DNA of 5,944 nucleotides, taken from the IMG/VR virus record IMGVR_UViG_2531839200_000013, one strand, 5' to 3'. The DNA is from a virus (Duplodnaviria > Heunggongvirae > Uroviricota > Caudoviricetes). Position 1 is the stretch's first letter. Each line of letters begins with the position of its first letter. The position numbers are program-made. Positions 1 to 3,000 of the stretch are shown in pieces.

Positions 1-3000
1 ATTACAGATTTAAGGGTGAACAAATCCCTGCCATTGCTGGCATATAAGAATGAAATCGGATGTTTATTACGGAACTGTTTTAAAGACCTGCCGGGATTTC
101 GTTATTATCCTGGTGAATAACTTTATCGACAGGGTAACAGTTACCGGGAATTTTCTGTTCGGTTGCTGCAGTCACACACTCCTGCATTGTCCTGTGAACA
201 CTGACTGCAATATCAACTGGCTCTCCGGAAACAAGAAAAACTGTCAGAACAAGTGCAAATGCTGTATTCATTGCCAGCATCCTTTTTGTATCGGACGTAA
301 ACGGGCCAGCATTGAAAGAATGCATATTTTATTTAATAACTCCCGTTCGTGTTTTCTCTTGTTAATGGCATCTTCAGTAAATACAGGGTTACTGATAGTG
401 ACACCAATTTCAAAACAACCTTCAGACGTATTAACGTTTGGTAATAACGTTTCCATTATCGCGTCCTCAACAATGAATTTTGTGATGCGGTGCCTGGTGC
501 CTCCAGGTGACGTTAACCAGTTAACAATTAACGCCGGATACAGAGAATCCACCCATAACACTGTTTTTAGCTTTAACTGTTCCGCGTGCGCTTAGCCGCA
601 TTCACTGCATCACAAAATTCACTTTAAAAAGGGCGGACATCAGTTCATGGGCAAACAGATGCCGCCAAACGTCACCAGAAAATTGATAACAGAGGGCGTT
701 GCAGCGGGGTTGTCACTTAAGCGTATGGTCAACCTGACAACCCGGTGTCCTCAACGGGGAAGGAATAACCCCGCCATACTTACCGCTGCGCCATTTCGCG
801 GAGTGCCACAACCGGAAGCGCACGGTCGACGAAAATTTAACGACAGGCTATCTATGAACCAGCAACCTCGCCGTGCGCTTTCGCGTTATGCTCTGACTTT
901 TCAGAGAAATATCCTTTCAGTAAACTGTCAGTGCCGGATGTTCACCCGTGTCCGGCGCACGCACTCCACTTCACCCGTGGAGAACTCCTTAATTACCAAC
1001 CCTCAGGAGGGTGAATGTTAAAATCAACTCTTATTGCTAAATGCCTTTATCAAAATCGCATGGTAAGCAGCATTTCAATAGGCGAGTCTGCAGTTAAAAG
1101 TATTTTCGAAGAGTACTTTCCCGGGCATGATTTTAATAAATGGAATACCAAATTACCGCCAGCAGTTTCAACGCGTATTCTGAAAGCAACCGAAAGAGCA
1201 AGTACAATTCGCGTTAACTATTTCATTAAAGATTTGTGGGATCTTTGATATCCACAGAGCCTAAAGTATGTGCATATGGATGTGCTATTATGCGCCCTCG
1301 CAGATTTGCATCATTTTCTAAATTCACTGAACGAAACAGGGCATCAACAAGGCTCTGTACAATGCAAAGGCAATCGAAGACTGTCGCCGTTTCTGTTTTG
1401 ATTGATGAAAGAACATGGCCATTCACGCAAACAGAAATTACCCGTTTATTAACATCGCTTTCCTGCTTTTGATTATCAGAACCATATAGCCCAGAAAAAG
1501 CATTGCGCACATTACGAACCATATTATCGATGGTTTCTTTTTCTGCGGTACTAAGGTCAAGAGTAGCCAGTTGTGAACGAACTATATTCGATGCCATTTC
1601 CTGTAATGGCGTTGGTAAATCTTTAAATTCCATTATTAGCCTCGTTGGTTAGCTATTAACGTGGGTATGTAATCATTCTGGCAATGCTTAATGCCGCTGC
1701 TTTTTCCAGATTGGTGATATCCTGCTCCAGAGCGGACAGATTTTCAGCCTGCTTAGCCCTGGCTTCATTGGCCCATTTCAGGTCCTGCACCGCCTTAATT
1801 TTCTGGTGCATCCACTCATAAAGTTCATCATCGGTATAGTCTGGCGCGATGATGACGGGGTCTCGTTTCTGCATGTCGGCTCCTTGTGGTTAGCGTTGCC
1901 TGCTTTTTAACCACGTCAGGCGAGGTGGTATCCTCTGAGGGGTCTGTTACTCGAGAGGAAATTGGTTATGAATACAATCAAGTTTTCTTGCCCAGAATGT
2001 GGTGGCTAAGTCTTTGACACATCCTTTAAGCCGCAGGGCTCTGACAGTTTCGCGGGAGCCATCTGCAAAAATTGTGGTCACCTTGTAACTGAAGATGAGT
2101 CCTCGCAGTTCGATGACGAAATCGTTGACAATATCTTCGGTGCACTCACCAGAGACTTTCTGAAGTAAAGGCGCATACCGCTTAGTTACCGCTCTGATAA
2201 CTCTTACCTGTCCGGCAATGGCGCTGATATCAATATAAAGCGCCATCGCTGTTTCTTTGCTGATCCCTGGACGCCTTCCATTCTGATGTTTGACTTCGCC
2301 CACTGAGAAATCCTCTGCTTCCCCTTAACGCCGGGTAGCGGAACTGTTTGCTGAGAACACCGTGCGGTGTCTTGATGAGTAGAATTTAGAATAGCCTAAG
2401 AGTTATGGTCAAGCTTTTTGTGTAGAAAAACCTAAGCTTCTTGATGTAAAAAACACAAGTATTTGAAAGTTTGTGCTTTTTATTACAGAGAGTTGCGAAA
2501 AAAAGGGGGGTTATTTATTTGCGCTTCTTTTGCGAGCTTTGAGTAGTTCTTCAAAAAGTTTGTTGAAATTCTCAACTCGAGCACGCATCTCTGACAACAG
2601 AGCCTTTTGCTCTGACTCAGGCAGTGCGTCGAACAGTTGAAGCAACTCTTTTTGATCTTCTGTCAGATTGACTGGCTGATTATCTGGGATCGGTTCGCCT
2701 GGTTGCTTATCTTCATCTCCAAAAAGAAGCCAAGTCGGCGAGCACTGAAGCGCCTGGCTCAGTGCGAATAATCTCTTCCCCGCTGGCTGTGTTTCATCTC
2801 TTTCCCATTGAGAAATTGTTACGTGAGCCACTTTGACCAGCTTACCTAATGCGGCCTGAGACAGTTTTAATTTTTTTCGCCTGTATAAGAGGCGAGCACC
2901 GAAGGTTTCGTTTTTCATATTAGGTAATTCTAATTTTTCTTGACTTAGGTTTCTCTACGATCTAGTTTCCTTAGGAAAATCTAAGGGGTTCGATATGTTG

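What the first reader, a model, noticed from the sequence alone, without database searches (positions are those of the whole stretch)
626..681. DicF sRNA homolog with conserved ends and a diverged central segment
The 5' about 20 nt (TTTCTGGTGACGTTTGGCGG) and the terminator match DicF as I recall it, but the internal region (CATCTGTTTGCCCATGAACTGATGTC) differs from the K-12 copy. DicF base-pairs with targets through both its 5' and 3' regions, so this variant may keep ftsZ targeting while differing in other targets. Genomes carrying IS629 often carry several dicF copies in different prophages, so this may be one paralogue of a small family.
Basis: partly seen in the sequence, partly recalled or inferred. 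Interest (0 to 1): 0.5.

Follow-up and report, generated by a model that had tools for sequence, protein, structure and literature searches.

The report
Overlooked DicF small-RNA variant in prophage
A prophage of E. coli O157:H7 carries an extra, unannotated copy of the small regulatory RNA DicF that keeps DicF's front end but has a different hairpin, the part that normally silences the cell-division gene ftsZ, so it probably controls only some of DicF's targets.

Summary
On the minus strand, 681→626, lies a 56-nt DicF-like RNA gene. Its first 20 nt and its last CCGCCC+U5 are identical to K-12 DicF. The 25 nt between them (661→637) are replaced, although the flanks are 95-100% identical.

It sits where dicF sits, 174 nt upstream of dicB in prophage Sp9 (at ompW) of O157:H7. 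Rfam DicF scores it 43.5 bits (E 3e-7), below the gathering score of 48, so pipelines miss it. It is absent from a published list of four EDL933 DicF copies.

The identical allele is in 290 of 5426 complete E. coli genomes, in E. albertii and in 23 IMG/VR contigs, across several prophage backgrounds.

Published mutants show that DicF's 3'/loop region pairs with ftsZ and pykA, and its 5' end with xylR. The variant keeps the xylR pairing exactly. Its pairing with the ftsZ and pykA sites falls to chance level.

Its stem base matches KilS (the Rac prophage sRNA) and many other prophage hairpins upstream of dicB or kilR. DicF therefore belongs to a wider modular family.

Verdict: a real new variant of a known sRNA. 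Its expression and targets are untested.

The parts
626..681 (-). DicF-variant sRNA gene. It is 51 nt to the end of CCGCCC (681->631) by analogy with the 53-nt K-12 annotation, and 56 nt with the U5 tail (630->626).
   Evidence: Rfam RF00039 hit 680-631(-), 43.5 bits, E 3e-7. Alignment to K-12 dicF b1574. Same position relative to dicB.
667..681 (-). Single-stranded 5' seed, nt 1-15 (UUUCUGGUGACGUUU), identical to K-12 DicF.
   Evidence: Predicted unpaired in the MFE and centroid structures. nt 4-15 pair with xylR +8..+20 with the same energy as K-12 DicF. Published xylR pairing uses the 5' end.
632..666 (-). Terminator/Hfq-module hairpin, nt 16-50: GGCGG-CAUC-U-GUUU / loop GCCCAU / GAAC-U-GAUG-U-CCGCC.
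   Evidence: MFE -17.3 kcal/mol, z -2.8 against 200 dinucleotide shuffles. The stem base C21...GAUGU is identical to that of KilS and at least 16 other prophage hairpin cores.
637..661 (-). Replaced segment, nt 21-45 (CAUCUGUUUGCCCAUGAACUGAUGU). It takes the place of the ftsZ/pykA-pairing loop and 3' arm of canonical DicF.
   Evidence: Alignment A1. Clustered-substitution test. Loss of the ftsZ and pykA site pairing.
626..630 (-). U5 tract of the intrinsic terminator.
   Evidence: Read directly from the sequence. Identical to K-12.
682..1010 (-). Conserved untranslated leader between ydfC-side genes and the sRNA. It holds the precursor sequence from which the DicF 5' end is cut in K-12.
   Evidence: 95-100% identical to K-12 Qin, with the 190 nt next to the sRNA 100% identical. 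It is 93-100% conserved across variant-bearing prophages whose ydfD is only 77-81% identical.
457..625 (-). Conserved spacer between the sRNA terminator and dicB. It has weak similarity to Rfam STnc100.
   Evidence: Alignment A1. STnc100 hit 642-437(-), 32.5 bits, below gathering score 47.
268..456 (-). dicB (cell-division inhibitor), the gene downstream of the sRNA in the same operon.
   Evidence: Annotation of identical sequence in F3113 and Sakai (ECs_1761).
80..271 (-). ydfD homologue (DUF1482), the last gene of the operon in the window.
   Evidence: Annotation.
1656..1874 (-). ydfC homologue, an upstream gene of the dicBF-type operon.
   Evidence: Annotation.
2511..2918 (-). DicA-like helix-turn-helix repressor of the immunity region. 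The divergent Cro/DicC-like gene is at 2995-3222(+).
   Evidence: Annotation. Same layout as K-12 dicC-dicA-ydfABC-dicF-dicB.

Best explanation
This is a genuine DicF-family small-RNA gene, a discrete allele here called the 'Sp9 type'. It lies in the dicBF-type early-left operon of lambdoid prophage Sp9/CP-933O, which is integrated at ompW in E. coli O157:H7. By inference from K-12 DicF, the operon transcript is cut at the conserved site just before UUUCUGG and ends at the hairpin+U5 terminator, giving a roughly 51-56-nt Hfq-type sRNA. Its single-stranded 5' seed (nt 1-15) is unchanged. It should therefore still repress xylR and any other 5'-seed target; a PerC/pch-family mRNA is a predicted candidate. 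Its loop and 3' arm have been exchanged for a hairpin with the stem base typical of KilS and other prophage hairpins, plus a loop of its own. That exchange removes the ACUCCG anti-Shine-Dalgarno stretch and the 3' arm that pair with the ftsZ and pykA ribosome-binding sites. It is therefore predicted to be a DicF that no longer blocks ftsZ translation. It still works as the terminator upstream of dicB. Shown here: homology, synteny, fold, distribution, and loss or retention of complementarity. Inferred: expression, processing, Hfq binding and actual regulation.
For: Fold: a 15-nt free 5' tail plus a hairpin of -17.3 kcal/mol (z -2.8), against -15.9 kcal/mol for K-12 DicF. Published region assignments are ftsZ and pykA to the 3'/loop region, xylR to the 5' end and manX to the 3' end. 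My accessibility-corrected search recovers the published K-12 site (DicF nt 25-53 with ftsZ -29..0) and finds no equivalent for the variant. On that site K-12 gives -27.9 kcal/mol with 21 bp and the variant gives -14.5. Shuffles of the variant segment average -13.6 (sd 3.1); 36% of them do as well as the variant and 0 of 1000 reach the K-12 value. At the pykA RBS the values are -22.3 and -10.6. The xylR pairing is identical in both. The ftsZ leader of the source strain is 100% identical to K-12. Conservation argues for function. The 41-nt core is at least 99% identical in all 290 complete E. coli genomes that carry it. The RNA is 100% identical in E. albertii. It is 98-100% identical in 23 IMG/VR contigs, spread over several prophage backgrounds in which ydfD is 77-100% and dicB 90-100% identical.
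Against: There is no expression or processing evidence for this copy. The one EDL933 RNA-seq table I could read does not list it, and it shows few or no reads for the other prophage copies. The Rfam score is below the gathering threshold. All target statements are in silico. Unconstrained duplex energies barely separate real from shuffled sequences, so only the site-restricted and accessibility-corrected calculations are informative. The family alignment shows no compensatory changes because the stems are nearly invariant. The hairpin could have gained a new target that I could not search for genome-wide.
Confidence: 0.65

Rival explanations
1. It is only the intrinsic terminator or attenuator of the prophage early-left operon upstream of dicB. 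On this view no trans-acting RNA of consequence is made, and the DicF-like 5' stretch is just inherited leader sequence.
For: The same constant stem (GGCGGCATC...GATGTCCGCCC+T-run) occurs with at least 16 hairpin cores and at least 10 unrelated upstream tails, 170-200 nt upstream of dicB or kilR homologues. A conserved cis role would produce this pattern. The stems show no covariation.
Against: Two members of this family are experimentally verified Hfq-associated sRNAs: DicF and KilS. The 15-nt 5' seed is the validated xylR-pairing sequence and is retained exactly. Only 3 of the 26 variant loci collected carry a 1-nt deletion in it.
Confidence: 0.15
2. It is a decaying, non-functional dicF pseudogene in a defective prophage.
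For: Sp9 carries defects in this window: a frameshifted DnaT-like replication gene and an IS1203/IS629 insertion. The Rfam score is sub-threshold.
Against: The changes are confined to one 25-nt patch inside otherwise 95-100% identical sequence (P about 1e-12). They give a more stable hairpin than K-12's (-17.3 against -15.9 kcal/mol). The allele is invariant in 290 genomes and in a second species, across different prophage backgrounds. No intermediates between it and canonical DicF were found.
Confidence: 0.05
3. This is the first reader's view: the variant keeps ftsZ repression and differs in other targets.
For: The 5' nt 1-9 can form a weak duplex with the ftsZ Shine-Dalgarno region (hybrid -7.5, total -5.1 kcal/mol). 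This duplex is shared with K-12 DicF. The GGCG/CCGC base of the stem could still pair with ftsZ -28..-25.
Against: The published ftsZ pairing uses the 3' region, and the DicF3 5'-end mutant still represses ftsZ. The variant's 3' region pairs with the site no better than shuffled sequence.
Confidence: 0.07
4. The new loop and 3' arm (UGCCCAUGAACUGAUGU) form a second seed with its own, still unknown, mRNA targets. That would be neofunctionalisation rather than simple loss.
For: The 25-nt segment is strictly conserved across backgrounds. Canonical DicF shows that this part of the molecule can act as a seed.
Against: In the variant most of this segment is sequestered in a more perfect stem, leaving only a 6-nt loop. 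No complementary site better than shuffled controls exists in the 5.9-kb window. A genome-wide search could not be run.
Confidence: 0.2

Closest known systems
DicF sRNA of the K-12 Qin prophage (b1574; Rfam RF00039) and the canonical O157 copies (EDL933 DicF_1, DicF_2, DicF_4)
   Same: Same operon position, between ydfC-side genes and dicB. Identical nt 1-20, identical terminal CCGCCC+U5, and 95-100% identical flanks. Same overall shape: a free 5' tail followed by a terminator hairpin.
   Different: The loop and 3' arm (25 nt) are replaced, and the ACUCCG anti-SD stretch is absent. Predicted pairing with the ftsZ and pykA ribosome-binding sites is lost. The Rfam score is 43.5 bits against 75-77 for canonical copies.
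KilS sRNA of the Rac prophage (b4833, kilR 5' UTR; Bar et al. 2021, PMC8175672). It was annotated as 'DicF_3' in an older EDL933 annotation.
   Same: Identical stem base (GGCGGCATC.G ... C.GATGTCCGCCC+U5). Homologous downstream spacer. Same placement about 175 nt upstream of a cell-division inhibitor gene.
   Different: KilS has an unrelated 5' part and a longer U-rich loop. It precedes kilR rather than dicB, appears to have its own promoter, and is 98 nt long. Overall hairpin identity to the variant is only 72%.
Other prophage hairpins of the same family in IMG/VR (for example the loops AGTTTCATTGCTGGCT and GGTTTAATTGCTGGCT)
   Same: Same constant stem and U-run, and the same location upstream of dicB or kilR homologues.
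   Different: They have different 5' tails and loops, and none carries the DicF seed. They are uncharacterised.

Membership tests
DicF (Rfam RF00039) | Covariance-model score at or above the curated gathering score (48 bits) | tested here: not met
   43.5 bits, E 3.1e-07, full-length match. Not reported for the identical Sakai sequence at the gathering threshold, while canonical copies score 75-77 bits.
DicF (Rfam RF00039) | Location in a dicBF-type operon, downstream of ydfC-side genes and about 170 nt upstream of dicB, with homologous flanks | tested here: met
   Annotation and alignment.
DicF (Rfam RF00039) | The DicF 5' single-stranded seed that pairs with xylR | tested here: met
   nt 1-20 are identical. 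The predicted xylR duplex is identical: nt 4-15 with +8..+20, total -12.8 kcal/mol.
DicF (Rfam RF00039) | Rho-independent terminator hairpin followed by a U-run at the 3' end | tested here: met
   Hairpin of -17.3 kcal/mol, z -2.8, followed by U5. The simple terminator scanner missed it because of the bulges in the stem.
DicF (Rfam RF00039) | 3'-region complementarity to the ftsZ ribosome-binding site, the basis of division inhibition that gave the family its name | tested here: not met
   -14.5 kcal/mol against -27.9 for K-12 on ftsZ -29..0, equal to shuffled controls. No 3'-region site was found with accessibility correction. This is in silico only.
DicF (Rfam RF00039) | A stable roughly 53-nt Hfq-dependent RNA made by RNase E processing and termination | not testable with these tools
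   The sequence around the K-12 5' end is 100% conserved for 190 nt, so processing is inferred only. No expression data for this copy were found.
KilS (Rac prophage sRNA) | Lies in the kilR 5' UTR and shares the KilS 5' body | tested here: not met
   The downstream gene is dicB. The sequence 5' of the hairpin is unrelated to KilS.
KilS (Rac prophage sRNA) | Terminator stem GGCGGCATC.G...C.GATGTCCGCCC+U-run | tested here: met
   Direct comparison.

The most novel reading that the evidence does not exclude
DicF and KilS are two named members of a larger modular family of prophage sRNAs that sit upstream of cell-division inhibitor genes (dicB or kilR). In this family a constant terminator/Hfq stem is combined by recombination with interchangeable 5' seeds and loops. 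The Sp9 allele would be a natural 'seed-swap' within it. It keeps the DicF 5' seed regulon (xylR, and perhaps the pch virulence regulators in EHEC) and is uncoupled from ftsZ and pykA repression and hence from DicF toxicity. Because it is missed at Rfam's threshold, it may also have survived in EHEC strains described as lacking all dicF copies.
Probability: 0.35. Interest if true: 0.55.

Novelty: new variant of a known kind. Interest (0 to 1): 0.4.

Why it matters
DicF is a textbook prophage sRNA, and in EHEC it is linked to oxygen-dependent virulence control. The literature speaks of 'four copies' in O157.

One published annotation-based list for EDL933 consists of three canonical copies plus the KilS-type hairpin, and it omits this Sp9 copy. 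If deletion studies followed such lists, a copy with an intact 5' seed remained in the strain.

The allele is also a ready-made natural experiment. It separates the two pairing regions of DicF: the 5' seed is kept and the ftsZ/pykA region is lost. Balasubramanian et al. had to engineer that separation with the dicF3 and dicF9 mutants.

Finally, the shared stem with KilS and many uncharacterised hairpins suggests that lambdoid phages shuffle sRNA seeds on a constant terminator scaffold next to their division-inhibitor genes.

Tried and rejected
1. Unconstrained RNAduplex of whole sRNAs or whole hairpins against the ftsZ leader. Energies for real and shuffled sequences overlap (z between -1.3 and +1.3), so this is uninformative. 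I replaced it with accessibility-corrected and site-restricted calculations.

2. Search for a cis target of the replaced segment within the window. Nothing was better than shuffled probes except the trivial self-antisense.

3. Covariation support for the hairpin. There were 0 compensatory pairs because the stems are nearly invariant.

4. The simple terminator scan does not report the hairpin, because of its bulges.

5. Intermediates between canonical DicF and the variant. None were found in IMG/VR or in GTDB species representatives.

6. The idea that the variant's hairpin is simply KilS's. Overall identity is similar to all types (72-77%). Only the stem base is shared and the loop is unique, so 'recombinant with KilS' stays a hypothesis.

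7. Literature. Melson & Kendall 2019, Murashko & Lin-Chao 2017 and Faubladier & Bouché 1994 are not held, so I could not check which four copies they meant. The variant's sequence occurs in no held paper.

8. Sakai prophage Sp8 was fetched and has no dicB/dicF region.

9. Counting copies through BLAST 'places' is only approximate. One of the six flank-matching places in EDL933/Sakai was not located.

10. I first assumed that pykA uses the DicF 5' end. The paper shows that it shares the DicF23 position with ftsZ.

Full report
WHAT IS THERE. The window is 100% identical to E. coli O157:H7 strain PV15-279, and 523 complete E. coli genomes cover at least 80% of it. It is the early-left/immunity region of lambdoid prophage Sp9, which is integrated at ompW in strain Sakai.

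Read on the minus strand, the gene order is as follows:
- a DicA-like repressor (2918->2511);
- a hypothetical gene;
- ydfC (1874->1656);
- a hypothetical gene (1633->1226);
- a 770-nt stretch with no minus-strand gene;
- dicB (456->268);
- ydfD (271->80).

This is the layout of the K-12 Qin dicC-dicA-ydfABC-dicF-dicB-ydfD locus. Within that untranslated stretch, 681->626 reads TTTCTGGTGACGTTTGGCGG CATCTGTTTGCCCATGAACTGATGT CCGCCC TTTTT.

CHECK OF THE OBSERVATION. An alignment of about 800 nt with the K-12 locus shows 95-100% identity on both sides. That includes 190 consecutive identical bases immediately upstream and identity of nt 1-20 and of CCGCCC+U5. Only the central 25 nt differ, and that segment is 2 nt shorter than in K-12. 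There are 15 differences in 31 columns against 4.5% elsewhere, P about 1e-12.

Rfam's DicF model aligns end to end at 43.5 bits, E 3e-7, below the gathering score of 48. At the gathering threshold the identical Sakai sequence is not reported, whereas three canonical EDL933 copies score 75-77 bits.

THE PARALOGUE FAMILY IN O157. I located five DicF-like elements in EDL933 (NZ_CP008957.1):
- a K-12-type copy next to ynfA, the Qin position;
- a copy with GTGGCTG in a prophage lying in tandem to the right of the Sp9-like one;
- a copy with A11 and GTAACTG in a prophage at about 1.25 Mb;
- the present variant;
- a 39-bit hit upstream of kilR in the Rac-like prophage.

The supplement of Neuhaus et al. 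2017 (PMC5331693) prints the sequences of the four RF00039-annotated 'DicF_1-4' of EDL933. They are the three canonical copies plus the kilR-upstream element, and the Sp9 variant is absent. Reviews repeat that EHEC has 'four copies'. The primary paper is not held, so I cannot say whether its four include this one.

DISTRIBUTION. A 41-nt query that can only seed in the variant core finds it in 290 of 5426 complete E. coli genomes, all at 99% identity or more. They include O157:H7 (EDL933 and 86-24 among them), O55:H7 and O103 strains, and O121 strains carry the locus too. The canonical core is found in 3941 genomes.

Among GTDB species representatives the variant also occurs, 100% identical, in Escherichia albertii. 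In IMG/VR, 23 contigs carry it. Three have a 1-nt deletion in the tail and one has a stem point change; no intermediates towards canonical DicF were found.

These loci represent several prophage backgrounds. ydfD is 77-100% and dicB 90-100% identical, the immunity genes differ, and yet the RNA is 98-100% identical. This speaks against decay and for either selection or efficient spread.

WHAT THE REPLACEMENT DOES.

Fold. Both RNAs fold as a 15-nt free 5' tail plus a hairpin plus a U-run. The variant hairpin is somewhat more stable (-17.3 against -15.9 kcal/mol; z -2.8 and -2.3).

Published assignments. Balasubramanian et al. 2016 showed by compensatory mutations that the 3' region pairs with the ftsZ ribosome-binding site. 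pykA shares the DicF23 position, and the 5' end pairs with xylR. Azam & Vanderpool assign manX to the 3' end.

ftsZ. An accessibility-corrected search recovers the published K-12 interaction, DicF nt 25-53 with ftsZ -29..0 (hybrid about -27.8 kcal/mol). It finds nothing comparable for the variant, whose best site is a weak 5'-tail duplex shared with K-12. Restricted to the published site, K-12 gives -27.9 kcal/mol with 21 bp and the variant gives -14.5. One thousand shuffles of the variant segment average -13.6 (sd 3.1); 36% do as well as the variant and none reaches the K-12 value. The ftsZ leader of the source strain is identical to K-12.

pykA. At the pykA ribosome-binding site the energy falls from -22.3 to -10.6 kcal/mol.

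xylR and pch. The xylR duplex (nt 4-15 with +8..+20, total -12.8 kcal/mol) is unchanged. A PerC/pch-family gene of EDL933 has a predicted 5'-seed site in its coding region for both RNAs. This is a prediction only.

Conclusion. The variant is best described as DicF with its 5' seed intact and its ftsZ/pykA-pairing module removed.

RELATION TO KilS AND A WIDER FAMILY. The element upstream of kilR is annotated in K-12 as the 98-nt sRNA KilS (b4833). It was verified by northern blot and found in Hfq RIL-seq. Its terminator stem, GGCGGCATCAG...CTGATGTCCGCCC+U5, has the same stem base as the variant.

They are combined with at least 10 unrelated 5' tails, and all lie 170-200 nt upstream of dicB or kilR homologues.

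The canonical DicF hairpin (T21...CTCTG) is the odd one out in this family. The variant is therefore the DicF tail on a family-typical stem with a loop of its own, and that loop is never seen with another tail.

Overall hairpin identity is similar to all types (72-77%). I cannot decide whether the allele arose by patch recombination or preserves an older state from which the ftsZ-pairing hairpin evolved. The family alignment shows invariant stems and no covariation.

VERDICT. This is a real, conserved, syntenic DicF-family gene that annotation thresholds miss. I file it as a new variant of a known kind. Mechanistically it most likely works like DicF through the 5' seed and as a terminator, but not like DicF on ftsZ. 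Expression, Hfq binding and all regulation remain untested here.

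Noticed in passing
window 1015-1248 (+): This 77-aa ORF is ECs_1762 of Sakai. It lies antisense to the dicBF-type operon transcript, about 335 nt from the sRNA. A 2025 study found ECs1762 enriched in an RNA-binding-proteome screen (TRAPP) and confirmed RNA crosslinking by a PNK assay. It has no recognisable RNA-binding domain (PMC7618764). It accompanies the variant in many but not all prophage backgrounds.
   Followed up: partly
L167 3459-3514 (+) (EDL933 Rac-like prophage); L289 1906-2003 (-) (K-12 Rac): The K-12 sRNA KilS and the element annotated as 'DicF_3' in an older EDL933 annotation are the same thing. 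KilS's terminator hairpin is homologous to DicF's (39.1 bits to RF00039). The KilS paper does not mention DicF.
   Followed up: yes
IMG/VR loci L169-L284 (for example L174, L189, L195, L203, L206): There is a modular family of hairpins with the constant stem GGCGGCATC...GATGTCCGCCC+T-run. It has variable loops and at least 10 unrelated 5' tails, and the hairpins lie 170-200 nt upstream of dicB or kilR homologues. Tail, loop and downstream gene occur in different combinations. Most types are uncharacterised.
   Followed up: partly
window 437-642 (-): The spacer between the sRNA terminator and dicB gives a weak full-length match to Rfam STnc100 (32.5 bits, gathering score 47). The kilR-upstream spacer does the same (35.5 bits). 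Bona fide STnc100 copies (100-138 bits) lie elsewhere in the same prophages, near the late-region tRNA genes.
   Followed up: partly
window 682-1010 (-): The untranslated leader upstream of the sRNA is more conserved across prophages (93-100%) than the flanking protein genes (ydfD down to 77%). It matches no Rfam family. A mechanical 124-aa ORF (647-1021, +) runs antisense through it and starts inside the variant's loop complement. No annotation calls that ORF.
   Followed up: no
window 5605-5944: This is the end of an IS1203/IS629 copy inserted in the DUF1627 gene. Most O157 genomes match the window only up to 5604, so the insertion is strain-polymorphic.
   Followed up: no
window 3729-4768 (+): The DnaT-like replication gene of this prophage is annotated as frameshifted in F3113 (locus L001 9729-10768). 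This is consistent with a replication-defective prophage.
   Followed up: no
L165 34287-34338 (-) (EDL933 NZ_CP008957.1 about 1,894,300): In EDL933 a second lambdoid prophage lies in tandem directly to the right of the Sp9-like one. It carries a canonical DicF copy (GTGGCTG type) 47 kb from the variant. The 80-kb 'CP-933O' region therefore holds two different DicF alleles.
   Followed up: yes
EDL933/Sakai genomes (not in window): A 191-nt query spanning the sRNA and its flanks finds 6 places in Sakai, EDL933 and 86-24. I located only five of them in EDL933. The sixth may be another hairpin type or a partial locus.
   Followed up: no
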